Counted from the first letter of the stretch, positions 7,525 through 28,796 are shown. The stretch: 30,358 nucleotides of DNA from a virus (IMGVR_UViG_3300029267_003506), one strand, 5' to 3'. The notes: generated by a model not told the origin, from the sequence alone. A program made the numbers and translations.

Positions 7525-8877
7525 TCAAGACGCCCCCACAGCCACCGCTTTGAATTCCTCACTCAACTTCCAATATTCCCTCAATGCCACAGAACCACAC
7601 CGATTCTGAAACTGAGCAGCACTCTCCCCTTCCCCCTCGGCAACCAACCGCTCAATATGCTCCGGACAGTCAGCCAAAATACGCTCCGCTAAAAGACGAC
7701 GCTCACGCTCGCCCAAAATCGTCAAACGAACCGAAAAATCAATCCGACCAGGACGCGTGCAACCGTCCTGCCCCCTAATCGGAGCACCCAACGCAGCATC
7801 CAAAAATTCCACATGATTCGTCGTCACAATAGTCAAAATCCCATCACTCACCTCAATGCCGTCAATCGTGTTCAAAAACACATCAAACGAAAGAGGCTTC
7901 CCCATCGTCGACTCCGCCCCAACATGCGTCCGCCCATGAAAAACACCATCAATATCCTCAATCAAAGCAATGCACGGCACCATCCGCTTCAACCCCATCC
8001 ACCCCTCCTGAAACTCGCGGTCAGTAAAAGACCCAAGCGCAAAAGAAACAATCGGTAAATCCAAATGCCTCCCTATTGCCCGAACCAACGACGTCTTCCC
8101 CGTCCCCGGAGGACCATAAAAAAGAGCCCCACGCTTCCAAGGAATCCCCCTCTCCTTGTACCACCCCTCCGAGTTCTTCCAGTGCTCCAGCATCTTCACC
8201 GCATCCATCACCGAAGCAGGAAAAACCAACGACTCAAAAGGATTCCCATCTGTCGCACCTTCCTCTCCAAGTTGGTCCGGAACCCAATGAATAAGACGCT
8301 TGTCCCATAAATCGAGGTCTGATTCCACCTCCTCGTCCACGCATTCTTTGGAATTCTCCTGTCCTCCATTCGAAACCTCTCCAAATGTCCCAAACGCGCG
8401 CCGGATAAAAAAACGCTTCTCCCGAAAACCAACGTATTTGACCCGATTGTAAATCTCAATCGCCTCAAATACAAATTTGTCAATGTCAAGAGTCCCACGG
8501 ATGAAACTCAACCTGAACGTGCCATCGTAATCGCCAGATGAATCCCTCTCAGCCCGACTAAAGAAAATCGGTATCCACCCATAGAAAAATAACAAGCCAG
8601 AATGCGCAATGTCCTCGTAAACCACACTCTGGTTGCGATTCCGAGGACGCACAAAATACCTGCCCGCCCTGAAATACCGGTCCCCAATCCGAACCCGACG
8701 CATTTTCTTCCAACAAAAATACGAAATGGCTAACCCAAGTGAACCGTTGCGAATCATCACGTTAACCACAAATAGACTACGGACCTTCGCCAAAAAACCC
8801 CTGATCTGACCCCAAAAAGCAACCAGACCAGCAACCACAGGACCACCAATCAATAAACCACTGACACCATCCAACAT
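7525..8877 (-). CDS. BCS1-like AAA+ ATPase with N-terminal hydrophobic segment, 450 aa
   Basis: Walker A GPPGTGKTS, Walker B IALIEDIDG, FLNTIDG, SRH TTNHVEFLDAAL..RPGRID, and a W..RGIPWKRG pre-Walker motif. Start at MLDGVSG (GGAG RBS, TGATG coupling). Confidence 0.85.
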   Translation of the reverse strand: MLDGVSGLLIGGPVVAGLVAFWGQIRGFLAKVRSLFVVNVMIRNGSLGLAISYFCWKKMRRVRIGDRYFRAGRYFVRPRNRNQSVVYEDIAHSGLLFFYGWIPIFFSRAERDSSGDYDGTFRLSFIRGTLDIDKFVFEAIEIYNRVKYVGFREKRFFIRRAFGTFGEVSNGGQENSKECVDEEVESDLDLWDKRLIHWVPDQLGEEGATDGNPFESLVFPASVMDAVKMLEHWKNSEGWYKERGIPWKRGALFYGPPGTGKTSLVRAIGRHLDLPIVSFALGSFTDREFQEGWMGLKRMVPCIALIEDIDGVFHGRTHVGAESTMGKPLSFDVFLNTIDGIEVSDGILTIVTTNHVEFLDAALGAPIRGQDGCTRPGRIDFSVRLTILGERERRLLAERILADCPEHIERLVAEGEGESAAQFQNRCGSVALREYWKLSEEFKAVAVGAS

Positions 8878-9097
8878 CAGCCAATCTCCCCAAACCCACA
8901 CAAAAGCGCCGCCTGCTGCTTCCTGAACGGACACCCAAAAGGAACCTCCCGTAATTCCTCCAACATCGTCCCCACTACCAACCAAGGCGTCTCAATACCC
9001 CCCCCACCCTGCGCTTCGCCATATGACAATACCCCTCCGTCCCCGCTAATGAGAGATAATGCCCACACCGCTCACATATGCCCCGGTTCACCACCAC
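8877..9097 (-). pseudogene. Cys-rich family gene split at a G8 tract
   Basis: GTG..NRGICERCGH..CHMAKRRVGG in one frame. The -1 frame after G8 (8998-9005) gives IETPW..REVPFGCPFRKQQ..* and is coupled by TGATG to the ATPase. Confidence 0.6.
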
Positions 9098-13095: not shown

Positions 13096-13258
13096 TTATT
13101 GAGAGTTTGCCAGTTTCTCTTCAGAAAGCAGTCGTGGTATTGCCTTTGCTGCTTGTGCGCTACTTCGGGTTGACCCTTTTCCGATTGTCTTGCCATTATG
13201 TTGAACGACCCACGGGATGCCTTTAGGGGTTTCTTGGCTTTTAATTTCAATTCAGCAT
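13096..13258 (-). pseudogene. Possible frameshifted small gene ML-[fs]-IEIKSQETPKGIPWVVQHNGKTIGKG...
   Basis: The coupled ATG CTG AAT TGA stops at once; removing one A joins it to an open 51-codon frame. Confidence 0.4.
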
Positions 13259-13446
13259 TGGTTTCTCATCAGGTGCTCAAGACAGTATGGGCAGTGTTTG
13301 GGGGGTTTTTCATGTACACTTATCCAATCACCTTCTGCGGCCATTTTGCACCAGATGTGTCCTTGTTGCCATATTCTTTCTGTCGGTCGTCCCCAGGTCC
13401 ATCCTTTTTGTTCGAGGCATTTTCTGCAGACGGTTTTGTCCAGCAT
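13252..13446 (-). CDS. Small Cys-rich family protein, 64 aa
   Basis: MLDKTVCRKC..W.W..IWC..PPKHCPYCLEHL; directly downstream of the MORN array. Confidence 0.85.
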   Translation of the reverse strand: MLDKTVCRKCLEQKGWTWGRPTERIWQQGHIWCKMAAEGDWISVHEKPPKHCPYCLEHLMRNQC

Positions 13447-13470
13447 TTCCCGTTGTCCTCATTTACGGCT

Positions 13471-14202
13471 TTAGTCCTCATCTACCCAGTCCTCTGAAGT
13501 CTCGATGCTGATAAGGGCTCCATTGTCGAAAACCTGAGCAAGCCAGGAGCCATCTGCTTTGACTTGCTCTGCTGTGCCATGGGGTTTGCCGTCTTTCCAG
13601 TGGCTAACAATCCAAGAACCGTCTGCTTTGACTTGCTCTGCTGTGCCATGGGGTTTATCATCTTTCCAGTAGTCAACACACCAGGAGTCATCGGAATTTA
13701 CCTGCTCACATCTACCGTGGAGTTTGCCCTCTTTCCAAATACTAATTTCCCAGGAACCGTCTGAGTTTACCCGTTCACGTCTGCCGTGGAGTTTGCCCTC
13801 TTTCCAAATGCTAATTTCCCAGAAACCGTCTGAGAATACCCATTCACGTTTGCCGTGGAGATTGCCGTTCTTCAGATTTTCAACACGCCAAGAAGAGCCG
13901 TCTGAGTTTACCCACTCGCATTTGCCATGACGTTTGCCATTTTTCCAGTTTTCAACATACCAGGAGCCATCTGCTTTTACCCGTTCTCGTTTGCCATGGC
14001 ACTTGTCATCTTTCCAGTTATCAACACGCCAAGAGCCGTCTGAGTTTACTTGTTCACATTTGCCATGTTTCTGACCGTATTTCCAGTTTTCAACATACCA
14101 AAAACCGTCTGAATATACTCGTTCTCGTCTGCCGTGGAGTTTGCCGTTCTCCCGGTTTTCAACAAGCCAAGAACCGTCGTCATTCACGGTCTCAGTCTTC
14201 AT
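13471..14202 (-). CDS. MORN-variant repeat protein (YwqK-like), 9 repeats, 243 aa
   Basis: 23-aa GSWxVxxWKxGKxHGxxExVxxD repeats with constant MKTETVNDD and ..ETSEDWVDED caps. Confidence 0.92.
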   Translation of the reverse strand: MKTETVNDDGSWLVENRENGKLHGRRERVYSDGFWYVENWKYGQKHGKCEQVNSDGSWRVDNWKDDKCHGKRERVKADGSWYVENWKNGKRHGKCEWVNSDGSSWRVENLKNGNLHGKREWVFSDGFWEISIWKEGKLHGRRERVNSDGSWEISIWKEGKLHGRCEQVNSDDSWCVDYWKDDKPHGTAEQVKADGSWIVSHWKDGKPHGTAEQVKADGSWLAQVFDNGALISIETSEDWVDED

Positions 14203-15058
14203 CTATCCAGTCCTCTGAAGTCTCGATGCTGATAAGGTCTCCATTGTCGAAAGTCTGAGCAAGCCAGGAGCCATCCGCTTTGACTTGCTCTGCTGTGCCA
14301 TGGGGTTTATCATCTTTCCAACAGTCAACATACCAGGAGCCGTCTGAATTTACCTGCTCACATCTACCGTGAAGTTTGCCGTCCTCGTAGTTGTCAAGAA
14401 ACCAAGTGCCGTCTGAATTTACCTGTTCCAGTTTACCGTGGAGTTTGCCATCCTTGTAGTTTTCAACAAACCAAGAATCATCTGAGAATACTCGTTCTCG
14501 TCTACCGTGGAGTTTGCCATTCTTCCAGGTTTCAACATACCATGAACTGTCTGCTTTTATCCCTTCTCGCCTGCCGTGTTTTTTGCCGTCTTTCCAGTGA
14601 CTGACTTCCCAGGAGCCGTCTGAGTTTACATATTCTGCTTTGCCGTGGAGGTTGTCGTCTTTCCGGGTTTCAACAAGCCAAGAGCCATCTGCTTTTACCC
14701 GTTCTTGTTTGCCGTGGGGCTTGCCGTCTTTCCAGTTGTCAACAAGCCAAGAACCGTCTGAGCCTATCCACTCGCACTTGCCATGACGTTTGCCGTCTTT
14801 GCGGGTTTCAACATACCAGGAGCCATCTGCTTTTACCCGTTCTCGTTTGCCATGGCACTTGTCATCTCTCCAGTTGCTAACAACCCAGGAGCCGTCTGAA
14901 TATACTCGTTCTTGTTTGCCGTGGAGTTTGCCATCCCTCCAGTGACTGACAATCCAGGAACCGTCTGAGTTTACGCATTCCCATTTGCCGTGGAGGTTGC
15001 CGTCTTTGCGGGTTTCAACACACCAAGAACCGTCGTCATTCACGGTCTCAGTCTTCAT
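14192..15058 (-). CDS. MORN-variant repeat protein, 11 repeats, 288 aa
   Basis: Length 35+23x11; 11-nt overlap with neighbours. Confidence 0.92.
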   Translation of the reverse strand: MKTETVNDDGSWCVETRKDGNLHGKWECVNSDGSWIVSHWRDGKLHGKQERVYSDGSWVVSNWRDDKCHGKRERVKADGSWYVETRKDGKRHGKCEWIGSDGSWLVDNWKDGKPHGKQERVKADGSWLVETRKDDNLHGKAEYVNSDGSWEVSHWKDGKKHGRREGIKADSSWYVETWKNGKLHGRRERVFSDDSWFVENYKDGKLHGKLEQVNSDGTWFLDNYEDGKLHGRCEQVNSDGSWYVDCWKDDKPHGTAEQVKADGSWLAQTFDNGDLISIETSEDWIDED

Positions 15059-15569
15059 CTACCCAGTCCTCTGAAGTCTCAATGCTGATAAGGACTCCAT
15101 TGTCGAAAACCTGAGTGAGCCAAGAACCGTCTGCTTTGACTTGCTCTGCTGTGCCATGGGGTTTATCATCTTTCCAATTTTCAACAAACCAGGAGCCGTC
15201 TGAATTTACCTGTTCCCATTTGCCGTGTTTTTTGCCGTCTTTCCAGTGGGCGACATGGCAAGAGCTGTCTAAGAACACCCATTTCCATTTGCCATGGGGT
15301 TTGCCATCCTTGTAGTTTTCAACAAACCAAGAATCATCTGAGAATACTCGTTCTCGTCTACCGTGGAGGTTGCCGTCTTTCCAATTTTCAACAAACCAGG
15401 AGCCGTCTGACTTGACTTGTTCGTATTTGCCGTGTCTTTTGTCATTTTTCCAGTGGCTAACACGCCAGGAACCGTCTGAATATACCTGTTCTCGTCTGCC
15501 ATGGAGTTTGCCGTTCTCCCGGTTTTCAACACGCCAGGAACCGTCATCGTTTATGGTTTCAGTTTTCAT
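15048..15569 (-). CDS. MORN-variant repeat protein, 6 repeats, 173 aa
   Basis: Length 35+23x6. Confidence 0.92.
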   Translation of the reverse strand: MKTETINDDGSWRVENRENGKLHGRREQVYSDGSWRVSHWKNDKRHGKYEQVKSDGSWFVENWKDGNLHGRRERVFSDDSWFVENYKDGKPHGKWKWVFLDSSCHVAHWKDGKKHGKWEQVNSDGSWFVENWKDDKPHGTAEQVKADGSWLTQVFDNGVLISIETSEDWVDED

Positions 15570-16149
15570 CTACCCAGTCCTCTGAAGTCTCGATGCTGAT
15601 AAGGACTCCATTGTCGAAAACCTGAGTGAGCCAAGAACCGTCTGCTTTGACTTGTTCTGCTTTACCGTGAGGTTTATCATCTTTCCAACAGTCAACATAC
15701 CAGGAGCCGTTTGAAAATACCCACTCCTGCTTGCCGTGTTTTTTGCCGTCTTTCCAGTGGGCGACATGGCAAGAGCTGTCTAAGAACACCCATTTCCATT
15801 TGCCATGGGGTTTGCCATCTTTCCGATTTTCGACAACCCAAGAGCCGTCTGAGTTTACTTGTTCGTATCTACCGTGGAGTTTGCCATCCTTGTAGTTTTC
15901 AACAAACCAAGAATCATCTGAGAATACTCGTTCTCGTCTACCGTGGAGTTTGCCATCCTTGTAGTTTTCAACATGCCAGGAGCCGTTTGACTTGACTTGT
16001 TCGTATTTGCCATGTCTTTTGTCATTTTTCCAGTGGCTAACAATCCAAGAACCGTCTGAATATACCTGTTCTCGTCTGCCATGGAGTTTGCCGTTCTCCC
16101 GGTTTTCAACAAGCCAAGAACCGTCGTCATTCACGGTTTCAGTTTTCAT
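15559..16149 (-). CDS. MORN-variant repeat protein, 7 repeats, 196 aa
   Basis: Length 35+23x7. Confidence 0.92.
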   Translation of the reverse strand: MKTETVNDDGSWLVENRENGKLHGRREQVYSDGSWIVSHWKNDKRHGKYEQVKSNGSWHVENYKDGKLHGRRERVFSDDSWFVENYKDGKLHGRYEQVNSDGSWVVENRKDGKPHGKWKWVFLDSSCHVAHWKDGKKHGKQEWVFSNGSWYVDCWKDDKPHGKAEQVKADGSWLTQVFDNGVLISIETSEDWVDEN

Positions 16150-17005
16150 CTACCCAGTCCTCTGAAGTCTCGATGCTGATAAGGTCTCCATTGTCGAAAG
16201 TCTGAGCAAGCCAGGAGCCGTCTGCTTTGACTTGTTCTGCCTTACCATGAGGTTTGCCGTCTTTCCAGTTCTCAGCATACCAAGAACAGTCTGAGTTTAC
16301 GCATTCCCATTTGCCGTGAGGATTGCCGTCTTTCCAACAGTCAACATACCAAGAGCCGCCCGGGAATACTCGTTCTCGTCTACCGTGGAGTTTGCCATCC
16401 TTGTAGTTTTCAACAAACCAAGAATCATCTGAACATGGCCGTTCTCGTTTGCCGTGGAGTTTGCCGTCTTTCCAGTGGCTAATAATCCAAGAACCGTCTG
16501 AATATACCTGTTCGTATTTGCCGTGTCTTTTGCCCTCTTTCCAGTGGCTAACAATCCAAGAACCGTCTGAATATACCTGTTCCTGTCTGCCGTGGAGTTT
16601 GCCGTTCTCGTAGTTGTCAAGAAACCAAGAACCGTCTGAATTTACCTGTTCCCATTTGCCGTGTCTTTTGCCGTTCTCGTAGTTGTCAACAAACCAGGAG
16701 CCGTCTGAATATACCTGTTCCTGTTTGCCGTGTCTTTTGCCATCTTTCCAGTGACTGACTTCCCAGGAACCGTCTGGATATACCTGTTCGTATTTGCCGT
16801 GTTTTTTGCCGTCTTTCCAGTGGCTAACAAACCAAGAATCATCTGAACATAGCCGTTCCCATTTGCCATGTTTCTGACCGTATTTCCAGTTTTCAACATA
16901 CCAAAAACCGTCTGGATATACCTGTTCCTGTCTGCCGTGGAGGTTGCCGTTCTTCCAGGTTTCAACATACCAAGAGCCATCAGAGTTTACGGTTTCAGTC
17001 CTCAT
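16139..17005 (-). CDS. MORN-variant repeat protein, 11 repeats, 288 aa
   Basis: Length 35+23x11. Confidence 0.92.
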   Translation of the reverse strand: MRTETVNSDGSWYVETWKNGNLHGRQEQVYPDGFWYVENWKYGQKHGKWERLCSDDSWFVSHWKDGKKHGKYEQVYPDGSWEVSHWKDGKRHGKQEQVYSDGSWFVDNYENGKRHGKWEQVNSDGSWFLDNYENGKLHGRQEQVYSDGSWIVSHWKEGKRHGKYEQVYSDGSWIISHWKDGKLHGKRERPCSDDSWFVENYKDGKLHGRRERVFPGGSWYVDCWKDGNPHGKWECVNSDCSWYAENWKDGKPHGKAEQVKADGSWLAQTFDNGDLISIETSEDWVDEN

Positions 17006-17516
17006 CTACCCAATCCTCCGAGGTTTCTATGCTGATAAGATCTCCATTGTCGAAAGTCTGAACGAGCCAGGAGCCGTCTGCTTTGACTTGTTCTGCCTTA
17101 CCATGAGGTTTACCGTCTTTCCAACAGTCAACATACCAAGAGCCGTCTGAATATACCTGTTCTCGTCTGCCATGGAGTTTGCCGTTCTCCCGGTTTTCAA
17201 CACGCCAGGAACCGTCTGAAAATACCCACTCACGCTCGCCGTGGAGTTTGCCGTCTTTCCAATTTTCAACAAACCAAGAATCATCTGAACATAGCCATTC
17301 CCATTTGCCGTGTTTTTTACCGTCTTTCCAGTTTTCAACATACCAAAAACCGTCTGAATATACCTGTTCTCGTCTGCCATGGAGTTTGCCGTTCTCCCGG
17401 TTTTCAACATACCAAAAACCGTCTGAAAATACCCACTCACGCTCGCCGTGGAGTTTGCCGTTCTCCCGGTTTTCAACAAGCCAAGAACCGTCGTCATTCA
17501 CGGTCTCAGTCTTCAT
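16995..17516 (-). CDS. MORN-variant repeat protein, 6 repeats, 173 aa
   Basis: Length 35+23x6. Confidence 0.92.
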   Translation of the reverse strand: MKTETVNDDGSWLVENRENGKLHGEREWVFSDGFWYVENRENGKLHGRREQVYSDGFWYVENWKDGKKHGKWEWLCSDDSWFVENWKDGKLHGEREWVFSDGSWRVENRENGKLHGRREQVYSDGSWYVDCWKDGKPHGKAEQVKADGSWLVQTFDNGDLISIETSEDWVDED

Positions 17517-18045
17517 CTATCCAGTCCTCTGAAGTCTCGACACTGATGAGAACTCCATTGTCAAAAGTCTGAACGAGCCAGGAGCCGTCTGCTTTGACTT
17601 GTTCTGCTCTACCGTGAGGCTTACCGTCTTTCCAACAGTCAACATACCAAGAGCCGTCTGAGTTTACGCATTCCTGTTTGCCGTGAGGATTGCCGTCTTT
17701 CCAGTGGCTAACATACCAAGAGCCGTCTGAGGATACGCATTCCTGTTTGCCGTGTCTTTTGCCGTTCTCGTAGTTGTCAAGAAACCAAGAGCCGTCTGAG
17801 GATACGCATTCCCATTTGCCGTGTCTTTTGCCGTTCTCCCGGTTTTCAACAAGCCAAGAACCGTCTGAAAATACCCACTCACGCTCGCCGTGGAGTTTGT
17901 CATCTTTCCAGTTCTCAACAATCCAAGAGCCATTTGAATATACCTGTTCCTGTTTGCCGTGTCTTTTGACGTGTCTTTTGCCGTGTCTTTTGCCGTTCTC
18001 GTAGTTGTCAAGAAACCAAGAGCCATCGTCATTCACAGTCTTCAT
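17506..18045 (-). CDS. MORN-variant repeat protein, 6 repeats plus an 8-aa slippage insert, 179 aa
   Basis: MKTVNDD start; KRHG-KRHV-KRHG triplication. Confidence 0.92.
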   Translation of the reverse strand: MKTVNDDGSWFLDNYENGKRHGKRHVKRHGKQEQVYSNGSWIVENWKDDKLHGEREWVFSDGSWLVENRENGKRHGKWECVSSDGSWFLDNYENGKRHGKQECVSSDGSWYVSHWKDGNPHGKQECVNSDGSWYVDCWKDGKPHGRAEQVKADGSWLVQTFDNGVLISVETSEDWIDED

Positions 18046-18556
18046 CTACCCAATCCTCTAAAGTCTCGACACTGATGAGAACTCCATTGTCAAAAGTCTG
18101 AGTGAGCCAGGAACCGTCTGCCTTGACTTGTTCTGCTCTACCGTGAGGTTTACCGTCTTTCCAGTTGTCAACAAACCAGGAGCCGTCTGAATTTACCTGT
18201 TCCCATTTGCCGTGTCTTTTGCCGTCTTTCCAATTTTCAACAAACCAGGAGCCGTCTGAATATACCTGTTCCTGTTTGCCGTGTCTTTTGCCATCCTTGT
18301 AGTTTTCAACATACCAAGAGCCGTTTGAAAATACCCACTCCTGCTTGCCGTGGAGTTTGCCGTCTTTCCAATTTTCAACAAACCAAGAATCATCTGAACA
18401 TAGCCATTCCCATTTGCCGTGTTTCTGACCGTATTTCCAGTTTTCAACATACCAAAAACCGTCTGGATATACCTGTTCCTGTCTGCCGTGGAGTTTGCCG
18501 TTCTCCCGGTTTTCAACACGCCAGGAACCGTCATCGTTTATGGTTTCAGTCTTCAT
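18029..18556 (-). CDS. MORN-variant repeat protein, 6 repeats, 175 aa
   Basis: Ends DEDCE because the next gene lacks the 6-nt ET codons (17-nt overlap). Confidence 0.92.
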   Translation of the reverse strand: MKTETINDDGSWRVENRENGKLHGRQEQVYPDGFWYVENWKYGQKHGKWEWLCSDDSWFVENWKDGKLHGKQEWVFSNGSWYVENYKDGKRHGKQEQVYSDGSWFVENWKDGKRHGKWEQVNSDGSWFVDNWKDGKPHGRAEQVKADGSWLTQTFDNGVLISVETLEDWVDEDCE

Positions 18557-19274
18557 CTACCCAGTCCTCTGAAGTCTCGACACTGATGAGAACTCCATTG
18601 TCAAAAGTCTGAGTGAGCCAAGAACCGTCTGCTTTGACTTGCTCTGCTTTGCCGTGAGGCTTACCGTCTTTCCAACAGTCAACATACCAAGAGCCGTCTG
18701 AGTTTACGCATTCCTGTTTGCCGTGAGGATTGCCGTCTTTCCAGTGGCTAACATACCAAGAGCCGTTTGAAAATACCCACTCCTCCTTGCCGTGGAGTTT
18801 GCCGTCTTTCCAATTTTCAACAAACCAGGAGCCGTCTGAGTTTACGCATTCCCATTTGCCGTGTTTTTTGCTGTCTTTCCAGTGGCTAACATACCAGGAG
18901 CCATCTGCTTTTATCCCTTCTCGTCTGCCGTGGAGGTTGCCGTTCTCCCGGTTTTCAACAAACCAGGAACAGTCTGAAAATACCTGTTCTCGTCTGCCAT
19001 GGAGTTTGCCGTCTTTCCAATTTTCAACAAACCAGGAGCCGTCTGAATATACCTGTTCTCGTCTGCCATGGAGTTTGCCGTTCTCCCGGTTTTCAACACG
19101 CCAGGAACCGTCTGAAAATACCCACTCACGCTCGCCGTGGAGTTTGTCATCTTTCCAGTTCTCAACAATCCAAGAGCCATTTGAATATACCTGTTCCTGT
19201 TTGCCGTGTCTTTTGCCGTTCTCGTAGTTGTCAAGAAACCAAGAGCCATCGTCATTCACAGTCTCAGTCTTCAT
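18546..19274 (-). CDS. MORN-variant repeat protein, 9 repeats, 242 aa (first gene of array 1)
   Basis: Length 35+23x9; GAGGGG RBS; promoter at 19335-19347. Confidence 0.92.
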   Translation of the reverse strand: MKTETVNDDGSWFLDNYENGKRHGKQEQVYSNGSWIVENWKDDKLHGEREWVFSDGSWRVENRENGKLHGRREQVYSDGSWFVENWKDGKLHGRREQVFSDCSWFVENRENGNLHGRREGIKADGSWYVSHWKDSKKHGKWECVNSDGSWFVENWKDGKLHGKEEWVFSNGSWYVSHWKDGNPHGKQECVNSDGSWYVDCWKDGKPHGKAEQVKADGSWLTQTFDNGVLISVETSEDWVDED

Positions 19275-19334
19275 CCCTCAACACCTCGCCGGTAGCCCAT
19301 AGACATACGTGGTACTAAAAATCCACGTGTGCCC

Positions 19335-19347
19335 ATTATACCATTTT
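19335..19347 (-). promoter_or_regulatory. AAAATGGTATAAT extended -10 promoter for MORN array 1
   Basis: TGnTATAAT about 60 nt upstream of the ATG at 19274. Confidence 0.6.
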
Positions 19348-19792: not shown

Positions 19793-20680
19793 TTACTTCA
19801 ACAAGCGGTTCAATTGAGCCATCGCTTCGCTGTGCTTGGAGTCCTTAAATTCTTGTTTTGCCAGCGTTCGGACTGTCTTCGTGACTGCCTCAGCGCATTT
19901 TATCAGGTAGGCGTCATGCAGCCAGCCAAGGTCATCAAACAGGTTGTCGTTACCCAGGAGGTCCACAAAAGCATCGGAGACGGACTTGCCCTCGATAGGA
20001 TTCTTGCCGGCTTTCATCCTCTGAACGTATTTAGCAATGGTCCGCACGTCTTTCTCATTCGTAGGTACTGCCCAGGTGCCGGCTGTCCGTTCTTCGCTGG
20101 CTTTGATGCCCTTCTTGGTGATTCTTGCGCTGGTGTTCTTGAGTAACCAGTCCACCTGCTCCTCGAAAGACGGTTTCTTGGACTTTACCCACATATTGAA
20201 GTCCACCTGCTTCTGCATCTGCTTTTCCTGGCGCGCGAGAGCACGAACAAACTCAGACTCTATGCTAGGCTGCTTCTTGAACGGAGCCGGGGACCTCTTG
20301 AATTGCTCCCAGGTCAATTCGTTAATGCTGCCGTCCTCCATCACCTCGGCTAAGGAATAGCGTCCTCCCTTGAACGGCGAGACGATTGCCTTATGTTTCA
20401 CCTTGGCTACCAGTTCTTTAGCCAGCCGCACCAACTCGATAGCCACATCCTCGTTCAGAGGGCACATTGGCGTCCCTCCGCGCGGACCAGTGCCATCCTG
20501 CGGTCCCCTGCGCAGATATCGCCGTCTACGTCTCGGTGCTATTGCAATTCCTTCCTCGTCAATCTCGGTCACAGGACACTCGGGAGCGCCGGCGTATGGA
20601 CCAGTGCCATCAGGAATACCAGGACCCATGATACTGCCTGCTAATTTCACCAGATCACCTGCAATCCGTCTCTCGTCCAT
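19793..20680 (-). CDS. MDER-leader family protein, 295 aa, with a second internal leader-like motif
   Basis: MDERRIAGDLVKLAG; internal VAIELVRLAKELVA; two DGTGP..G.P.CP repeats; AAGGAG RBS. Confidence 0.85.
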   Translation of the reverse strand: MDERRIAGDLVKLAGSIMGPGIPDGTGPYAGAPECPVTEIDEEGIAIAPRRRRRYLRRGPQDGTGPRGGTPMCPLNEDVAIELVRLAKELVAKVKHKAIVSPFKGGRYSLAEVMEDGSINELTWEQFKRSPAPFKKQPSIESEFVRALARQEKQMQKQVDFNMWVKSKKPSFEEQVDWLLKNTSARITKKGIKASEERTAGTWAVPTNEKDVRTIAKYVQRMKAGKNPIEGKSVSDAFVDLLGNDNLFDDLGWLHDAYLIKCAEAVTKTVRTLAKQEFKDSKHSEAMAQLNRLLK

Positions 20681-21126: not shown

Positions 21127-21762
21127 ATGAGGATATCTATCTTCGTCCCCGGCATCCTTACGGTGCTGGGAGTTATATTCGTCATTGTGTCCTTTGCTGT
21201 CATCACGCCGTGGTTGTCTGTATTGTGGTTCGTTGCGTTCTTTTTGCTGCTGCATTGCGAGCGTTTTTGGGAAGCCATCTTTACAACGGAATTCATAACA
21301 ACCGCGAATGGTGTCGAACTTCGTGGCAGGCGAAAACGACTCTATCCAGGTGGCTCCTTGGTTGTCGAAAACTGGAAAGACGACAGATTCCACGGCAAAT
21401 ATGAGCGATTCAATCCAGATGGCTCTTACTACATCAGCCACTGGAAAAACGGCAAACTTCACGGCAAACGAGAATGGATTTACCCAGGTGGCTCCTTGGT
21501 TGTTGAAAATTGGAAAGACGATAAACTCCACGGCAAATATGAGCGATTCAATCCAGATGGCTCTTACTACATCAGCCACTGGAAAAACGGCAAACTTCAC
21601 GGCAAACGAGAATGGATTTACCCAGACGGTTCCTGGTTTGTTGAAAATTGGAAAGACGATAAACTCCACGGCAAATATGAACAGGTAAACTCAGATGGCT
21701 CCTGGGAAGTCAGAACCTACGACCACGGAACCCTCGTCAGTAGAGAAACTTCGGAGGACTGA
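21127..21762 (+). CDS. Membrane-anchored MORN-variant repeat protein, 211 aa
   Basis: GGAGG RBS; about 40 hydrophobic N-terminal residues, then repeats including a near-exact 46-aa duplication; ends ETSED. Confidence 0.88.
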   Translation: MRISIFVPGILTVLGVIFVIVSFAVITPWLSVLWFVAFFLLLHCERFWEAIFTTEFITTANGVELRGRRKRLYPGGSLVVENWKDDRFHGKYERFNPDGSYYISHWKNGKLHGKREWIYPGGSLVVENWKDDKLHGKYERFNPDGSYYISHWKNGKLHGKREWIYPDGSWFVENWKDDKLHGKYEQVNSDGSWEVRTYDHGTLVSRETSED

Positions 21763-21766
21763 AAAG

Positions 21767-22282
21767 ATGAAGACCACGACAACTGAAACCGTGAATGATG
21801 ATAGTTCTTGGTGTGTTGAAACCCGGAAGAACGGCAAACCCCACGGTAAACGGGAATGGGTATATTCAGACGGGTCCTGGGAAATTGAAACCTACAAAGA
21901 CGGCAAAAAACACGGCAAATGTGAACGAGTATATTCAGACGGGTCCTGGGAAATTGGCAACTACAAAGACAACAAACTCCATGGCAAATGTGAACGGGCA
22001 TATTCAGACGGGTCCTGGGAAATTGAAACCTACAAAGACAACAAACTCCATGGCAAATGTGAACGGGCATATTCAGACGGGTCCTGGGGAATTGGCAACT
22101 ACAAGGATGACAAATTTCACGGCAAATGGGAATTGGTAAACGCGGATGGCTCCTGGCTTGTTGAAAACTGGAGAGATGGTAAAAGACACGGTAAACATGA
22201 ACGGGTAAACTCAGACGGCTCCTGGGAAGTCAGAACCTACGACCACGGAACCCTCATCAGCAAAGAAACCTCGGAGGACTGA
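21767..22282 (+). CDS. MORN-variant repeat protein, 6 repeats, 171 aa
   Basis: MKTTTTETVNDD start; length 33+23x6. Confidence 0.92.
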   Translation: MKTTTTETVNDDSSWCVETRKNGKPHGKREWVYSDGSWEIETYKDGKKHGKCERVYSDGSWEIGNYKDNKLHGKCERAYSDGSWEIETYKDNKLHGKCERAYSDGSWGIGNYKDDKFHGKWELVNADGSWLVENWRDGKRHGKHERVNSDGSWEVRTYDHGTLISKETSED

Positions 22283-22286
22283 AAAA

Positions 22287-22802
22287 ATGAAGACCACGAC
22301 AACAGAAATCGTGAATGATGATGGTTCCTGGGTTGTTGAACACTGGAAAGACGATAAACTCCAGGGCAGACGAGAACGGGTATATTCAGACGGCTCCTGG
22401 ATTGTTAGCCACTGGAAAGACGGCAAAAAACACGGCAAATGGGAATGCGTAAACTCAGACGGCTCCTGGTTTGTTAGTCACTGGAAAGACGATAAACTCC
22501 ACGGTAGACGAGAACAGGTATATTCAAACGGCTCCTGGGTAGTCAGTCACCGGAAAGACGGCAAAAAACACGGCAAATGGGAATGCGTAAACTCAGACGG
22601 CTCCTGGTTTGTTGAAAATTGGAAAGACGGCAAACTTCACGGTAGATGTGAGCAGGTATTTTCAGACTGTTCTTGGTATGCTGATAACTGGAAAGACGAT
22701 AAACTCCACGGTAGACGAGAACAGGTATATTCAAACGGCTCCTGGGTACTTGAAATCTATGACGACGGAACCCTTGTCAGTAGAGAAACCTCGGAGGACT
22801 AA
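22287..22802 (+). CDS. MORN-variant repeat protein, 6 repeats, 171 aa
   Basis: Length 33+23x6; 4-nt spacer. Confidence 0.92.
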   Translation: MKTTTTEIVNDDGSWVVEHWKDDKLQGRRERVYSDGSWIVSHWKDGKKHGKWECVNSDGSWFVSHWKDDKLHGRREQVYSNGSWVVSHRKDGKKHGKWECVNSDGSWFVENWKDGKLHGRCEQVFSDCSWYADNWKDDKLHGRREQVYSNGSWVLEIYDDGTLVSRETSED

Positions 22803-22806
22803 GAAG

Positions 22807-23124
22807 ATGAAGACCACGACAACTGAAATCGTGAATGATGATGGTTCCTGGATTGTTAGCCACTGGAAAGAGGGCAATCTCCAGGGCAGGAGGGAACGGG
22901 TATATTCAGACGGCTCCTGGATTGTTAGCCACTGGAAAGAGGGCAAACTCCATGGCAGACGAGAACAGGTATATTCAGACGGTTCCTGGTATGTTAGTCA
23001 CTGGAAAGACGATAAACTCCACGGTAGACGAGAACGGGTATATTCAGATGGCTCTTGGGTACTTGAAATCTATGACGACGGAAACCTTGTCAGTAGAAGA
23101 AACCTCGGAGGACTAAGAAGATGA
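22807..23124 (+). CDS. MORN-variant repeat protein, 3 repeats, terminal +1 frameshift, 105 aa
   Basis: An extra A in AGTAGAAGAAACC changes SRETSED* to SRRNLGGLRR*, ending in an ATGA overlap. Confidence 0.85.
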   Translation: MKTTTTEIVNDDGSWIVSHWKEGNLQGRRERVYSDGSWIVSHWKEGKLHGRREQVYSDGSWYVSHWKDDKLHGRRERVYSDGSWVLEIYDDGNLVSRRNLGGLRR

Positions 23125-23567
23125 AGACCACGACAACTGAAACCGTGAATGATGATGGTTCCTGGGTTGTTGAACACTGGAAAGATGGCAATCTCCAGGG
23201 CAGGAGGGAACGGGTAAAAGCAGACGGCTCCTGGTTTGTTGAAAATTGGAAAGACGGCAAACTCCATGGCAGACGAGAACAGGTATTTTCAGACTGTTCC
23301 TGGTATGTTAGTCACTGGAAAGACGATAAACTCCACGGTAGACGAGAACAGGTATATTCAAACGGCTCCTGGGTAGTCAGTCACTGGAGAGACGGCAATC
23401 CTCACGGCAAACAGGAACAGGTATATTCAGACGGCTCTTGGTATGTTGACTGTTGGAAAGATGGCAAACTCCACGGCAGACGAGAACGAGTATATTCAGA
23501 CGGCTCCTGGGTACTTGAAATCTATGACGACGGAACCCTTGTCAGTAGAGAAACCTCGGAGGACTAA
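23121..23567 (+). CDS. MORN-variant repeat protein, 5 repeats, 148 aa
   Basis: Length 33+23x5. Confidence 0.92.
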   Translation: MKTTTTETVNDDGSWVVEHWKDGNLQGRRERVKADGSWFVENWKDGKLHGRREQVFSDCSWYVSHWKDDKLHGRREQVYSNGSWVVSHWRDGNPHGKQEQVYSDGSWYVDCWKDGKLHGRRERVYSDGSWVLEIYDDGTLVSRETSED

Positions 23568-23571
23568 GAAG

Positions 23572-23868
23572 ATGAGCCCAGTGACAACTGAGACCGTGAA
23601 TGACGATGGTTCCTGGTATGTTGAAACCTGGAAGAATGGCAAGCAGGAGTGGGTAAACTTAGACGGTTCGTGGTACGTCGAACACTTGAAAGACGGTCAG
23701 CCCCATGGCAAATGCGAGTGGGTTTACTCAGATGGTTCCTGGGGATACAACAATGTCAAAGACAACAAACTCCATGGCAAACATGAACGGGTAAACTCAG
23801 ACGGCTCCTGGGAAATTGAAACCTATAACAATGGAGTCCTTGTCAGCACACAAACCTCGGAAGATTGA
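23572..23868 (+). CDS. MORN-variant repeat protein, 3 repeats (one with a 4-aa deletion), 98 aa
   Basis: MSPVTTETVNDD start; ends QTSED. Confidence 0.88.
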   Translation: MSPVTTETVNDDGSWYVETWKNGKQEWVNLDGSWYVEHLKDGQPHGKCEWVYSDGSWGYNNVKDNKLHGKHERVNSDGSWEIETYNNGVLVSTQTSED

Positions 23869-23870
23869 CC

Positions 23871-23980
23871 CAAAAACCAAGAAAATTCGCATTTTCCAAC
23901 CGCTTTTCCTTTCTGAGACCGGTTATACAGTCAGAAAGGAGGACCATACAACCCAACGCGCGACTGAAACCCCGACCTGA
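23871..23980. repeat. ~110-bp direct repeat, copy 1
   Basis: Matches 24240-24349 except for 2 substitutions and A-run length; contains CGGTTATACA and AAAGGAGG. Confidence 0.95.
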
Positions 23981-24239
23981 AGCGCCGGGGGTCGCGAGGC
24001 TGGGCACACTCAGCCAGTGCCAGGGATACCACGAGCAACCCTGGAGCCGAGGTACGCCGGATTCTGCCCCAACCACCACAAAAAAACAGACAGACCTCCC
24101 CGTACCTCTGGTCCCGGGCTCGTTCCCCGCCTCTCTACCCTGTATAACCCGCCCCAAATTCCAAAAACCCCCGAAATCCAAGAATTTCTCCAAAAAACCG
24201 TCAGATATCCCCCCAGTCCCGCGTCATCCCTCAGAGTTC

Positions 24240-24349
24240 AAAAAACCAAGAAAATTCGTGTTTTCCAACCGCTTTTCCTTTCTGAGACCGGTTATACAGT
24301 CAGAAAGGAGGACCATACAACCCAACGCGCGACTGAAACCCCGACCTGA
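24240..24349. repeat. ~110-bp direct repeat, copy 2
   Basis: 369 bp downstream of copy 1. Confidence 0.95.
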
Positions 24350-24434
24350 CGTGCATAGCCAAAGAAACCCTCTCAATAGAAAGGACCCCCAGAAAAACCG
24401 TCCCACTTCACCCATAAACAAAGGAGCCCTGTCC

Positions 24435-24740
24435 ATGAAATTCGTCAATCTCACGCCCCACGCCATCACCCTCACCAATGGCACCACCTATCCACCCAGC
24501 GGTACCATAGCGCGCGTCACTAGCCAACATACCGAATTCGACCAAAACCAAATCTGCTCCGTTACCTTTGGCAACGTAGAAAACCTCCCCGACCCGCAAC
24601 CTGATACCACCTACATCACCAGCGCCATCGTGAAAACCGCCTGCAACCGCCCCGATGTCGTCTCCCCAGCCACCGGACACCCAGATTGCCAAAGAAACGA
24701 GAAAGGACATATCACCGCCGTCCCAGGCTTCGTGCGCTAA
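24435..24740 (+). CDS. Conserved NLTPH-motif phage protein of unknown function, 101 aa
   Basis: MKFVNLTPH..PPSG..ARV..LPDP..YITS..RPDV..R.EKGHI; AAGGAG RBS at 24421. Confidence 0.85.
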   Translation: MKFVNLTPHAITLTNGTTYPPSGTIARVTSQHTEFDQNQICSVTFGNVENLPDPQPDTTYITSAIVKTACNRPDVVSPATGHPDCQRNEKGHITAVPGFVR

Positions 24741-26372: not shown

Positions 26373-26597
26373 TTACGAAAGGGGGGCGTTTTGGGTGATG
26401 AGGTGTTCGAGGTAGTAGGGGCAGGTTTTTGGGGGTGGGGAGTTTCTGAGGGCACGAGGAAAGCAGCATGGGCAGAGCACGAGGTTTTCTCGACTCCAGA
26501 AGCGGTCATCAGCGACGCACCATCCCCACAGCGACGCATCAGGGAATCTAGTCGCGTAGTGATTACGGCATTTTCGACAGATTTCCTTATTCAGCAT
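26373..26597 (-). CDS. Small Cys-rich family protein, 74 aa
   Basis: MLNKEICRKC..W.W..W..VLCP..PPPKTCPYYLEHL. Confidence 0.88.
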   Translation of the reverse strand: MLNKEICRKCRNHYATRFPDASLWGWCVADDRFWSRENLVLCPCCFPRALRNSPPPKTCPYYLEHLITQNAPLS

Positions 26598-26948
26598 GTG
26601 GGTTTCTCTTGGGTAAAGAGGTGTTCAGCGCTGTAAGGACAAGATTCCGGGAAACTATCGGGGCACAAGAACACAATGCACTTTGAAAGAGGGAACCATC
26701 GTCGTTCACAGTCTTCATCTACCCAGTCCTCTGAGGTCTCTATGTTGATGAGAACTCCATTGTTGAAAATCTGGACAAGCCAAGAACCATCCGCTTTGAC
26801 TTGCTTTGCCATGAGGTTCACCGTCTTTCCAGTTATCAGCATACCAAGAGCCGTCTGAATTGACTCGTTCACATTTACCGTGGAGTTTGCCATCTTTCCG
26901 GTTTTCGACATGCCAGGAGCCATCGTCGTTTACGGTTTCAGTCTTCAT
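26591..26948 (-). pseudogene. Split MORN-variant gene (4-nt deletion) whose distal frame runs into a Cys-family C-terminus
   Basis: MKTETVNDD..HGKA shifts frame to KQVKADGSW..EDWVDED-CERRW..PESCPYSAEHLFTQEKPTC. Confidence 0.8.
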
Positions 26949-27199
26949 CTACCAAGCCCCGAGCAGTCCTTCAATCTTGTCCGGCATCTGATCTTTTCCC
27001 GAATTAAGAGGTGTTCGAGGTGGTAAGGGCAGTCTTTTGGTGGTTGGGAGTTTGTGAGAATCATAGAAAAGAAATGGTGCGGACAAACTACCAGATTTTC
27101 ACTATTCCAATGGTCTTCGTCCTTATCGTCCCAACTCCAATCGTCAAGGTTCTTTGTTTGCTGTTCATGGCATTTTTTGCAGACTTCTTTATTCAGCAT
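26945..27199 (-). CDS. Small Cys-rich family protein, 84 aa
   Basis: MLNKEVCKKC..PPKDCPYHLEHL..SGLGR*; stop overlaps the MORN start. Confidence 0.88.
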   Translation of the reverse strand: MLNKEVCKKCHEQQTKNLDDWSWDDKDEDHWNSENLVVCPHHFFSMILTNSQPPKDCPYHLEHLLIREKIRCRTRLKDCSGLGR

Positions 27200-27420
27200 G
27201 CGGATTCCTCTTGTTGAGTCAGGAGGTGTTCGAGGTAGTAGGGGCAGTCTTCTGGGGGTTGGGAGTTTATGTTGAGAGTCACGAAACAGCGTAGACAAAA
27301 CACGAGGTTTTCTTGATTCCAGCGGTCTTCATCATCGCTATTCCATACCCAATACCACGAACCTGGGAATTGTCTCGCGTGGTGTTTATGGCATTTTTTG
27401 CAGGCTTCTTTCCTCAGCAT
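27193..27420 (-). CDS. Small Cys-rich family protein, 75 aa
   Basis: MLRKEACKKC..PPEDCPYYLEHL; ATGCTGA overlaps. Confidence 0.88.
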   Translation of the reverse strand: MLRKEACKKCHKHHARQFPGSWYWVWNSDDEDRWNQENLVFCLRCFVTLNINSQPPEDCPYYLEHLLTQQEESAC

Positions 27421-27987: not shown

Positions 27988-28647
27988 TCAATCCTCATCT
28001 GTCCAATCCTCTGAAGTCTCTACAGTGTTGAGGTCTCCGTTGTTGAAGGTCTGAACGAGCCAAGAACCGTCTGCTTTGACTTGCTCTGCTTTACCATGAG
28101 GCTTACCGTCTTTCCAGTTATCAGCATACCAAGAACAGTCTGAATTTACGCATTCCTGTTTGCCATGGAGATTGCCGTCTTCCCGGTTTTCAAGAAGCCA
28201 AGAGCCGCCCGGGAATACTTGTTCTCGTCTTCCGTGAAGTCTGCCATCTTTCCAGTTTTCGACACACCAGAAACCGTCTGAATTTACCCATTGTCGTTTG
28301 CCGTGAGGCTTGTTGTCTTTCCAGTGACTGACTTCCCAAGAGCCGTCTGCATTTACCTGTTCCCATTTGCCGTGTTTTTTGCCGTCTTTCCAGTTTTCAA
28401 CAAACCAAGAACCGTCTGTTCTCAGCCGTTCCCATTTGCCGTGGAGGTTGCCGTCTTTCCAATTTTCAACAAACCAGGAGCCGTCTGCATTTACCTGTTC
28501 TCGTCTACCGTGGAGTTTGTCATCTCTCCAATGACTGACAATCCAAGAACCGTCTGTTCTCAGCCGTTCCCATTTGCCGTGTTTTTTGCCGTCTTTCCAA
28601 TTTTCAACAAACCAGGAGCCGTCGTCATTCACAGTTTCAGTCTTCAC
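27988..28647 (-). CDS. MORN-variant repeat protein, 8 repeats, 219 aa (GTG start)
   Basis: GTG-KTETVNDD; length 35+23x8; array-1 type caps. Confidence 0.9.
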   Translation of the reverse strand: MKTETVNDDGSWFVENWKDGKKHGKWERLRTDGSWIVSHWRDDKLHGRREQVNADGSWFVENWKDGNLHGKWERLRTDGSWFVENWKDGKKHGKWEQVNADGSWEVSHWKDNKPHGKRQWVNSDGFWCVENWKDGRLHGRREQVFPGGSWLLENREDGNLHGKQECVNSDCSWYADNWKDGKPHGKAEQVKADGSWLVQTFNNGDLNTVETSEDWTDED

Positions 28648-28796
28648 CTGCCGAGCCCCGAGCGGTCTTTCAGGTTTGTCCGACATTTGACTTCTTCCTG
28701 GATTAAAACGTGTTTGACAGGGCACAAGCCGCCGTGAATAAAACAGTGGCGCTCCTGCAGACTTCTTTGTTCAGCGCTTCTCTTCCCTTCAAGCAT
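28644..28796 (-). pseudogene. Collapsed Cys-rich family relic
   Basis: (A)LNKEVC in one frame and CPVKHVLIQEEVKC..SGLGR* in the ATG frame. Confidence 0.55.

What the first reader, a model, noticed from the sequence alone, without database searches (positions are those of the whole stretch)
13471..19274. Combinatorial MORN-repeat 'binder library': nine tandem genes assembled from shuffled 69-nt modules between constant caps
Seen in sequence: nine genes have length about 35+23n aa (n = 9,6,6,6,11,7,6,11,9 in transcription order; 71 repeats), with a fixed MKTETVNDD start and a fixed AEQVKADGSWLxQxFDNGxLIS(I/V)ETSEDW(V/I)DE(D/N) cap. Identical modules recur in different genes at different repeat positions: GFWYVENWKYGQKHGK (13471, 16139, 18029), RRERVFSDDSWFVENYKDGK (14192, 15048, 15559), KWKWVFLDSSCHVAHWKDGKKHGK (15048, 15559), RREGIKAD (14192, 18546) and WLCSDDSWFVENWKDGKLHG (16995, 18029). 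Variation concentrates at the residue after GSW, the xxW triplet and the GKxExV strand, while G/W/H/D scaffold positions stay fixed. The canonical MORN YxGx(W/F) glycine is replaced by VEN/VSH. Established: MORN repeats form extended beta-hairpin sheets that bind protein partners, and YwqK-type MORN-variant proteins act as toxin immunity proteins. Inference: this is a recombination-driven repertoire of binding proteins, analogous in logic to lamprey VLR LRR shuffling or TALE arrays, possibly neutralising diverse host toxins or defence proteins.
Basis: partly seen in the sequence, partly recalled or inferred. Interest (0 to 1): 0.9.

Follow-up and report, generated by a model that had tools for sequence, protein, structure and literature searches.

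The report
Phage MORN-repeat gene family, groove-variable
A large uncultured sediment/seawater phage carries nine back-to-back genes (16 in the window) for small MORN-type beta-hairpin repeat proteins. Their variable residues sit where solved MORN proteins bind partners, and the copies have swapped short DNA patches, so this looks like an ordinary recombining gene family of probable binding proteins, not a programmed "library" system.

Summary
Nine minus-strand genes (19274 to 13471) each consist of an MKTETVNDD start, n x 23-aa (69-nt) units (n = 9,6,6,6,11,7,6,11,9) and a constant C-cap.

- **Fold:** MORN (AlphaFold2 pLDDT 95; best Foldseek matches MORN1, junctophilin, MORN4).
- **Variable sites:** positions 2,4,6,12,14,16 align to the groove-lining residues of canonical MORN, the face that binds a peptide in junctophilin. 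Scaffold residues are under purifying selection.
- **Mosaicism:** exact tracts of 45-115 nt lie in a background of about 71% identity, often 1-5 units out of register (P<=0.0005). N-cap and C-cap relationships disagree.
- **Not free shuffling:** 39 of 70 units are unique at 90% identity and shared modules keep their order. No A-biased, DGR-type mismatch signature was seen. The array is identical in other assemblies.
- **Family size:** six more genes on the + strand, one more on the - strand and a decayed copy. Differences between assemblies concentrate in these genes.

Best reading: a germline multigene family of groove-variable binders that diversifies by unit gain/loss and gene conversion. 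Targets are unknown, and an anti-toxin or anti-defence role is untested. This scan has noted similar phage MORN-like arrays on other DNA.

The parts
18546..19274 (-). g1, 242 aa, 9 units; first gene of the operon
   Evidence: Pfam MORN 23.7 bits; identical in L002 and L011
18029..18556 (-). g2, 175 aa, 6 units. Its stop is pushed 6 nt downstream (DEDCE) because g3 has a 6-nt deletion in its N-cap, giving a 17-nt overlap
17506..18045 (-). g3, 179 aa, 6 units plus an 8-aa KRHVKRHG stub from a 12-nt microsatellite (17953-17996)
16995..17516 (-). g4, 173 aa, 6 units, with an internal 3-unit duplication; the protein that was modelled
16139..17005 (-). g5, 288 aa, 11 units
   Evidence: exact protein in JGI 3300017989
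15559..16149 (-). g6, 196 aa, 7 units
15048..15569 (-). g7, 173 aa, 6 units
14192..15058 (-). g8, 288 aa, 11 units
13471..14202 (-). g9, 243 aa, 9 units (one unit of 24 aa)
13320..13481 (-). Tenth start using the same overlapping junction (MRTKAVNED...), 53 aa, without repeats; probably the decayed edge of the duplication
19284..19343 (-). Candidate start signals for g1: extended -10 TGGTATAAT (19343-19335) and GAGG (19287-19284) 9 nt before the ATG
   Evidence: read from the sequence; the consensus scan gave no enrichment
21127..23868 (+). Array B: six further paralogues (211, 171, 171, 105, 148, 98 aa) with cap ...LVSRETSED, separated by 4 nt. The first has a membrane-helix N-terminus and the fourth has a frameshifted cap
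27988..28725 (-). Array C gene, 245 aa, with an array-A-type cap (ETSEDWTDED)
26591..26923 (-). Decayed copy that keeps only the C-cap in frame

Best explanation
This is a germline multigene family of small, probably cytoplasmic MORN-fold proteins in a large uncultured phage.

- **Structure.** Each protein is a single twisted beta-sheet of 6-11 hairpins between a half-repeat N-cap and a constant C-cap that ends in a disordered acidic tail.
- **Expression (inferred).** The nine genes form one operon and are translationally coupled. The last codons of each gene (S-E-D-W-V-D-E-D-stop) also carry the next gene's Shine-Dalgarno GAGGA and its ATG.
- **Diversification.** The family changes by gain and loss of whole 69-nt units and by short, often out-of-register gene-conversion or unequal-crossover tracts, within and between the three arrays.
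- **Variable face.** Amino-acid change is concentrated on the groove face of the sheet. In solved MORN complexes that face holds the partner.
- **Inferred function.** The family most likely provides a panel of binders with different specificities, probably for host proteins.

Shown: gene structure, fold, mosaicism, position-specific variability, purifying selection on the scaffold. Inferred: coupling, binding, targets.
For: - **Anatomy and junctions:**
- **Family and fold:** MORN Pfam hit above the cut-off in 7 of 9 genes. AlphaFold2 pLDDT 95.2, all hairpins. Foldseek top hits are Tg/Tb/Pf MORN1 at E about 1e-11, then radial-spoke proteins, junctophilin and MORN4.
- **Groove mapping:** HMMER alignment to MORN1 places our positions 2,4,6,12,14,16 on G3, L5, Y7, Y13, G15, W17. 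Sajko et al. 2020 (PMC7725318) describe the YEGEW and LxY residues among these (L5, Y7, Y13, W17) as lining the longitudinal groove, with G3 kept small to make room for them; the junctophilin paper describes the G3/G14 'glycine valley' walled by Y1 and W5, and a CaV1.1 peptide binds the concave groove side (PMC8916002).
- **Variability by face:** mean entropy is 2.04 bits on the groove positions against 0.79 on the opposite face. Arrays B and C show the same pattern. In 23 independent close unit pairs pN is 0.154 for groove, 0.038 for convex and 0.051 for loop positions.
- **Purifying selection:** H22, G23, E3, D8 and K17 have high synonymous and almost no nonsynonymous diversity.
- **Mosaicism:** exact tracts of 45-115 nt at shifts of 1-5 units, each with P<=0.0005. 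N-cap and C-cap nearest neighbours disagree. Exact tracts of up to 84 nt are shared with the inverted array B.
- **Recent change confined to the family:** all 35 differences between L004 and the window lie within 348 nt of the array-C gene, with 0 in 1,895 nt of flank. There is a 2-unit indel in the first array-B gene. Elsewhere, more than 20 kb of comparisons show 0-3 differences.
Against: - No binding partner, expression data or host is known.
- dN/dS on the groove positions is 0.64, below 1, so diversifying selection is not shown and relaxed constraint would fit as well.
- Array A itself shows no variation between the concordant assemblies, so rapid turnover is demonstrated only for arrays B and C.
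Confidence: 0.6

Rival explanations
1. One reading: a recombination-driven combinatorial 'binder library' built from a pool of 69-nt modules (VLR/TALE-like logic), which neutralises diverse host toxins or defence proteins.
For: Short identical tracts recur at different unit positions. Variable residues lie on one face. Alleles of the array-C gene differ by patches, part of which are unit swaps.
Against: 39 of 70 units are singletons at 90% identity, and the 11 shared module types are collinear in all genes. No donor cassette pool was seen. No reverse transcriptase or recombinase was found among the larger ORFs that were scanned, and the mismatch spectrum is transition-dominated without A bias. 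Array A is base-identical in JGI 3300029258, JGI 3300017989 and ENA contigs. There is no YwqK/MORN_2 family hit and no toxin neighbour.
Confidence: 0.1
2. These are structural or scaffolding proteins. Like MORN1 they would oligomerise through their constant caps into a mesh or a virion/assembly scaffold. Variation on the groove would then be tolerated drift plus concerted evolution, not diversified specificity.
For: The best structural matches are MORN1 proteins, which dimerise tail to tail and form higher-order assemblies (PMC7725318). The caps are constant. Groove dN/dS is below 1. Translationally coupled neighbours are often made in fixed ratios.
Against: In canonical MORN proteins the groove residues are the conserved structural core, yet here they are the most variable positions. 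Nine to sixteen diverged copies of different lengths are not needed for a homotypic scaffold.
Confidence: 0.15
3. Gene-dosage or 'accordion' expansion of a single function: the copies are redundant and their differences have no functional meaning.
For: Tandem arrays with unit and gene copy-number changes are typical of accordion expansions in large viruses.
Against: Paralogues are old (about 71% nt identity between units), all nine are intact, and scaffold residues are under purifying selection. Amino-acid change is 3-4 times enriched on one face.
Confidence: 0.1
4. Assembly artefact: the order of units and genes in array A is a chimera made by a short-read assembler.
For: Several ENA contigs break at or inside the array (L002, L003, L013). 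L013, L015 and L009 switch between paralogues exactly at shared tracts; L015 fuses g5 to g9 into a 450-aa gene. Logan unitigs cover the array only in pieces of 345 nt or less.
Against: The longest exact repeat in the array is 115 nt, short enough that a read longer than this (for example 150 nt) could span every repeat. A 19.5-kb JGI contig is identical to window 23556-12506, which covers the whole array (it may share the window's source). Two contigs of a second JGI sample, overlapping by 123 nt, cover 19146-9898 with 1 mismatch inside the array and 1 outside. ENA L008 matches 15188-4192 exactly.
Confidence: 0.04

Closest known systems
Canonical MORN repeat proteins (Pfam PF02493; TbMORN1/TgMORN1/PfMORN1, junctophilin-1/2, MORN4, radial-spoke RSPH1)
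   Same: 23-residue period; one hairpin per repeat forming a single twisted beta-sheet; conserved G10-equivalent, W17-equivalent and H-G; incomplete first repeat acting as a cap. Best sequence and fold matches.
   Different: The groove-lining signature (second G of GxG, LxY, and the Y and G of YEGEW) is not conserved and is in fact the hypervariable set. A new conserved stripe (E3, V5, W11, V13) lies on the other face. The proteins are small, stand alone and are encoded in tandem arrays in a phage.
MORN_2 / YwqK-type proteins (PF07661; YwqK, annotated as the antitoxin of the YwqJK module) and the Fusobacterium MORN2 expansion (10.1101/534297)
   Same: Bacterial-type short MORN-variant proteins that are expanded into families of 20-40 genes per genome with unknown function. 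The C-cap F-D-N-G-x-L-I resembles the (Y/F)xNGxL ends of MORN_2 hits P0002 and P0006.
   Different: No PF07661 or NCBIfam YwqK hit at E<=0.01. No toxin gene lies beside them. According to the Fusobacterium paper most MORN2 proteins have signal peptides; the nine genes here begin directly with a half-repeat, and none was tested with a signal-peptide predictor.
Repeat-protein multigene families of giant viruses (ANK, FNIP, MORN, LRR; PMC5753266)
   Same: Large viruses multiply repeat-domain protein genes in clusters, presumed to be protein-protein interaction modules directed at the host.
   Different: Those are eukaryotic viruses with canonical MORN units. The weak IMG/VR matches L001 and L006 are of that kind at 31-39% identity. 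Here the genes show prokaryotic organisation, with overlapping, SD-coupled starts.
phrog_7324 (phage protein family of unknown function)
   Same: All five paralogues tested match it at E 1e-8 to 2e-15.
   Different: The match covers repeats only. Just one GenBank phage (BK070118, 25% identity) matches g5 by tblastn, so the capped subfamily is not represented among deposited phages.
TALE, LRR and ankyrin arrays that evolve by unequal recombination
   Same: A constant scaffold with a few specificity positions per repeat; changes in repeat number and patchy conversion.
   Different: Only an analogy in logic. There is no evidence of DNA binding or of any dedicated diversification machinery.

Membership tests
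MORN repeat (PF02493 and MORN fold) | Tandem 23-residue repeats | tested here: met
   71 units of 23 aa / 69 nt
MORN repeat (PF02493 and MORN fold) | Pfam model score above the gathering cut-off (22.5 bits) | tested here: met
   7 of 9 genes score 22.9-43.1 bits; g6 scores 21.3 and g4 has no hit
MORN repeat (PF02493 and MORN fold) | Single-layer beta-hairpin sheet resembling solved MORN proteins | tested here: met
   pLDDT 95.2; 6t69, 6t68, 6t6q at E 1e-11, TM 0.5-0.66; junctophilin and MORN4 also match
MORN repeat (PF02493 and MORN fold) | Conserved GxG and YEGEW/LxY groove motif (Sajko et al. 2020) | tested here: not met
   Only the first G and, mostly, the W are kept. G3, L5, Y7, Y13 and G15 equivalents are the most variable positions. 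This makes it a divergent variant, not a canonical member
MORN_2 / YwqK antitoxin family | Match to PF07661 or the NCBIfam YwqK model | tested here: not met
   No hit at E<=0.01
MORN_2 / YwqK antitoxin family | Adjacent cognate toxin gene (LXG/YwqJ-type) | tested here: not met
   Neighbours that were scanned are a 295-aa protein and a small Cys protein (no family hit) and, further off, an RNA ligase. Smaller neighbouring ORFs were not scanned
Diversity-generating retroelement target | Reverse transcriptase plus template/variable repeat pair differing at adenines | tested here: not met
   Mismatches between near-identical units are 69% transitions with no A bias. No RT was found among the larger ORFs scanned. 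Small ORFs and the rest of the genome were not scanned
VLR-like programmed cassette assembly | Incomplete germline gene flanked by donor cassettes, with assembled forms that differ between molecules | tested here: not met
   All nine genes are complete. The array is identical in concordant assemblies of other samples. Read-level heterogeneity could not be tested with unitigs

The most novel reading that the evidence does not exclude
Large phages may keep a recombining repertoire of groove-variable MORN mini-binders. In this reading three arrays exchange short tracts, so that different strains carry different specificities, and the panel is used to bind and disarm variable host proteins such as defence effectors or toxins. 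That would be a phage counterpart of the host-targeting repeat-protein families of poxviruses and giant viruses.
Probability: 0.2. Interest if true: 0.8.

Novelty: new variant of a known kind. Interest (0 to 1): 0.55.

Why it matters
MORN repeats are a common protein-binding scaffold that remains poorly understood. Here evolution appears to have freed the normally conserved groove for variation while moving the conserved stripe to the other face. That offers a natural set of 16 related scaffolds for asking what the MORN groove recognises.

For phage biology, such arrays are hard to assemble from short reads: MORN repeats were 37 times more frequent in long-read marine viral data than in assemblies (PMC9238414). 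They may therefore be an under-counted class of host-interaction genes in large phages. The dual-coding junction, where the cap codons double as the next gene's RBS and start, also shows how a tandem array can duplicate as a self-contained expression unit.

Tried and rejected
- **Homodimer prediction for g4**: no verdict.
- **RNA runs:** no RNA holder was listed, so expression could not be assessed.
- **Logan unitigs of four runs**: they cover the array at 99% or more but in pieces of 345 nt or less, so they cannot confirm or refute connectivity. The 'loose end' at 15083 is simply the end of array B gene 6.
- **GenBank phage DNA searches**: no match.
- **Relatives of the flanking 295-aa and RNA-ligase genes in IMG/VR**: none found.
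- **GTDB genomes**: only one 30% match.
- **The two IMG/VR MORN matches** (L001, L006): their gene content looks like eukaryotic giant viruses, and their MORN units are canonical.
- **Consensus promoter and terminator scan**: no enrichment.
not found upstream of array A.
- **Donors for the variant tracts of the L004 allele**: only partly found inside the window.
- **+1 ribosomal frameshift at GAC-UGA-A fusing neighbouring genes:** considered from the sequence and rejected. The next frame would read on as a repeat, but the site is not slippery and each gene has its own SD and ATG.
- **Positive selection on the groove**: not shown; dN/dS is 0.64.
- **Model coordinates:** not available, so side-chain directions could not be measured.
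Full report
**Observation.** The window holds nine consecutive minus-strand ORFs from 19274 down to 13471, of 242, 175, 179, 173, 288, 196, 173, 288 and 243 aa. Cutting each protein after every H-G gives strictly 23-residue units between an MKTETVNDD start and a 34-residue C-cap. The unit counts are 9, 6, 6, 6, 11, 7, 6, 11 and 9. The only irregularities are an 8-residue stub in g3, caused by a 12-nt microsatellite, and one 24-residue unit in g9. Tandem Repeats Finder reports the 69-nt period in every gene. Four of the five occur at different unit indices in different genes; GFWYVENWKYGQKHGK is at unit 1 in all three genes.

**Gene junctions.** Neighbouring genes overlap by 11 nt (GATGAAGACTGA), and the next gene is in the +1 frame. 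The codons S-E-D-W of each cap contain GAGGA 8 nt before the next ATG. Where g3 lost 6 nt from its N-cap, the stop of g2 moved 6 nt downstream, which shows the dual coding directly. In front of g1 there is TGGTATAAT and a GAGG 9 nt before the ATG. After g9 the same junction starts a 53-codon ORF without repeats. I read this as one translationally coupled operon. That is an inference from sequence. A generic promoter/terminator scan was uninformative.

**What the proteins are.**
- Pfam MORN (PF02493) scores above its cut-off in seven of the nine genes.
- An AlphaFold2 model of g4 has mean pLDDT 95.2 and is a chain of hairpins with a disordered acidic tail.
- Its best Foldseek matches are Toxoplasma, Trypanosoma and Plasmodium MORN1 at E about 1e-11, followed by radial-spoke MORN proteins, junctophilins and MORN4.
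- A profile of the nine genes finds the same PDB chains by sequence.
- There is no hit to MORN_2/YwqK models or to anti-phage defence models.
- PHROGs has a matching family of unknown function, phrog_7324.

**Where the variation lies.**
- Per-position entropy over 56 distinct units is high at positions 2, 4, 6, 12, 14, 15, 16 and 21. It is near zero at E3, W11, H22 and G23, and low at V5, D8, G9, S10, V13, K17, G19 and K20.
- Arrays B and C show the same pattern.
- The HMMER alignment to TbMORN1 places our 2, 4, 6, 12, 14 and 16 on G3, L5, Y7, Y13, G15 and W17 of the structure-based MORN consensus.
- According to Sajko et al. 2020, the YEGEW and LxY residues among these (L5, Y7, Y13, W17) stack and line the longitudinal groove, with G3 kept small to accommodate them (PMC7725318). 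In junctophilin the Y1/W5 walls and the G3/G14 'glycine valley' belong to the concave, groove-forming side, where the CaV1.1 peptide binds (PMC8916002).
- So the partner-binding face of canonical MORN proteins is the variable face here, and the conserved stripe (E3, V5, W11, V13) is on the opposite face.
- This mapping is by alignment plus strand alternation.

**Selection.** Invariant residues carry abundant synonymous differences (for example E3, D8, K17, H22) and almost no nonsynonymous ones. Overall pN/pS is 0.43. These are therefore functional proteins. In 23 independent close unit pairs, pN is 0.154 for groove positions, 0.038 for the convex face and 0.051 for loops. The corresponding dN/dS values are 0.64, 0.38 and 0.19. 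Amino-acid change is enriched 3-4 fold on the groove, but positive selection is not demonstrated.

**Shuffling or ordinary family evolution?**
- Units average 71.5% nt identity, yet five unit pairs are 100% identical.
- Paralogues share exact tracts of 45-115 nt, often displaced by 1-5 units: g1 units 1.8-3.4 equal g4 units 3.8-5.4, and g6 units 2.75-4.0 equal g8 units 7.75-9.0.
- Each of the 14 longest tracts exceeds all 2,000 phase-preserving permutations.
- N-cap relationships (g4=g9, g2~g7, g1~g3) disagree with C-cap relationships, which follow physical neighbours.
- Exact tracts of up to 84 nt are shared even with the inverted array B.

The family is therefore a recombination mosaic, but it is not a free combinatorial assembly. 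At 90% identity, 39 of 70 units are unique. The 11 shared module types give this map:

| gene | module map |
|---|---|
| g1 | .FB.....G |
| g2 | ACH... |
| g3 | .FB..G |
| g4 | ABCHB. |
| g5 | .C....E.D.. |
| g6 | AE.D.I. |
| g7 | AE.DI. |
| g8 | ...J....D.K |
| g9 | AC.J...K. |

Order is always preserved, and only B is duplicated, within g4. Mismatches between near-identical units are 69% transitions without A bias, which argues against a DGR. Tract ends simply coincide with variable codons. This is what unequal crossing-over and gene conversion in a tandem repeat family produce.

**The family is larger than the finding.**
- Array B (+ strand, 21127-23868) has six more genes with cap ...LVSRETSED. 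The first has a hydrophobic N-terminus and the fourth has a frameshifted cap.
- Array C is a 245-aa gene at 27988-28725.
- A decayed copy lies at 26591-26923.
- A small Cys-rich protein gene of one paralogous family lies downstream of array A and of the decayed copy, with further members around the array-C gene.

**Context.** The surroundings look like phage: AAA ATPase, DNA methyltransferase and RNA ligase. No whole genome is held. One matching contig is 116.7 kb long. The DNA occurs in sediment and seawater metagenomes.

**Assembly and population evidence.**

Concordant assemblies:
- A 19.5-kb JGI contig (3300029258) is identical to window 23556-12506, which includes the whole array. It may share the window's source.
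- Two contigs of another JGI sample (3300017989) overlap by 123 nt and together cover 19146-9898. They show one mismatch in g2 and one outside the array.
- ENA contig L008 equals 15188-4192.
- The longest exact repeat is 115 nt, so reads longer than that could resolve the array.

Discordant or variant contigs:
- Three ENA contigs switch paralogue exactly at shared tracts. L013 joins the g7 cap to g2. L015 skips from g3 to the end of g4 and from g5 into g9, giving a 450-aa gene. L009 loops g8 back on itself. These may be chimeras or minority recombinants, and unitigs cannot decide.
- The JGI allele of the array-C gene (L004) differs from the window at 35 positions, all within 348 nt of units 1-5, against none in 1,895 nt of flank. 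Part of this is an intragenic unit swap.
- The first array-B gene has two extra units in the window and in JGI 3300029258, relative to the ENA contigs (165-aa P0001).
- Outside the MORN genes the same comparisons show only 0-3 differences.

**Relatives.** The capped subfamily appears restricted to this phage lineage.
- Apart from the same phage in other assemblies, the nearest protein in the collections searched is from another metagenome contig at 48% identity, again at a contig end.
- A profile search finds 15,221 MORN proteins, but the top ones are long canonical GxG/YxGxW proteins.
- Only one GenBank phage matches, at 25% identity.
- Literature searches found no description of phage MORN arrays.
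- They did find the Fusobacterium MORN2 expansion, giant-virus repeat families that include MORN, and the note that MORN repeats are 37-fold under-recovered in assembled marine viromes.
- Earlier notes of this scan report similar MORN-like arrays in other large phages, so this kind of locus has been found before on other DNA.

**Verdict.** It overreaches in proposing a programmed module library, and the YwqK/anti-toxin link fails the family tests. The most likely mechanism is a germline family of groove-variable MORN binders that evolves by unit indels and gene conversion. Its targets are unknown.

Noticed in passing
window 21127-23868 (+), 27988-28725 (-), 26591-26923 (-): Seven more paralogues of the same MORN family in two further arrays, plus one decayed copy. 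The first array-B gene has a membrane-helix N-terminus, and the fourth (22807-23124) has a frameshifted C-cap.
   Followed up: partly
window 13252-13446, 26945-27298, 27193-27468, 29083-29487 (all -): A paralogous family of small Cys/His proteins (MLxKxxCxxC ... CPYxLEHL). One member lies downstream of array A and others lie downstream of the decayed copy and around the array-C gene, so the MORN genes and this gene type may have duplicated together.
   Followed up: no
L004 1603-1950 = window 28618-28271: An allele of the array-C gene from another JGI metagenome differs at 35 positions within 348 nt, while 1,895 nt of flank are identical. Part of the difference is a swap of units within the gene.
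   Followed up: yes
window about 21455-21563; L002, L003: A two-unit (138-nt) length polymorphism in the first array-B gene: 211 aa in the window and JGI 3300029258, 165 aa in two ENA assemblies. The two copies are only about 91% alike, so an assembly collapse seems unlikely.
   Followed up: partly
L015 1-5650; L013 1-141; L009: ENA short-read contigs give discordant paths through array A, including a g5/g9 fusion of 450 aa and a g7-cap-to-g2 join whose g7 part is exactly 141 nt, the same number as the k141 label in the contig names. These may be chimeras or minority recombinants.
   Followed up: partly
window 17953-17996: A 12-nt microsatellite (TTTGCCGTGTCT x 3.7) inside g3 adds the KRHVKRHG stub. 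This is slippage on a smaller scale than the 69-nt unit.
   Followed up: no
window 23865-24740: A direct repeat of about 370 nt, seen as the peptide KPRKF(A/V)FSNRFSFLRPVIQSERRTIQPNARLKPRP occurring twice.
   Followed up: partly
window 19793-20680 (-): The 295-aa protein upstream of g1 has no family match. It carries two copies of a DGTGP-x-G-x-P-x-CP motif near its N-terminus.
   Followed up: no
window 7525-8985 (-): The AAA ATPase weakly matches the PADLOC IetA models (E 7e-12 over about 65 residues), probably through the P-loop region only.
   Followed up: no
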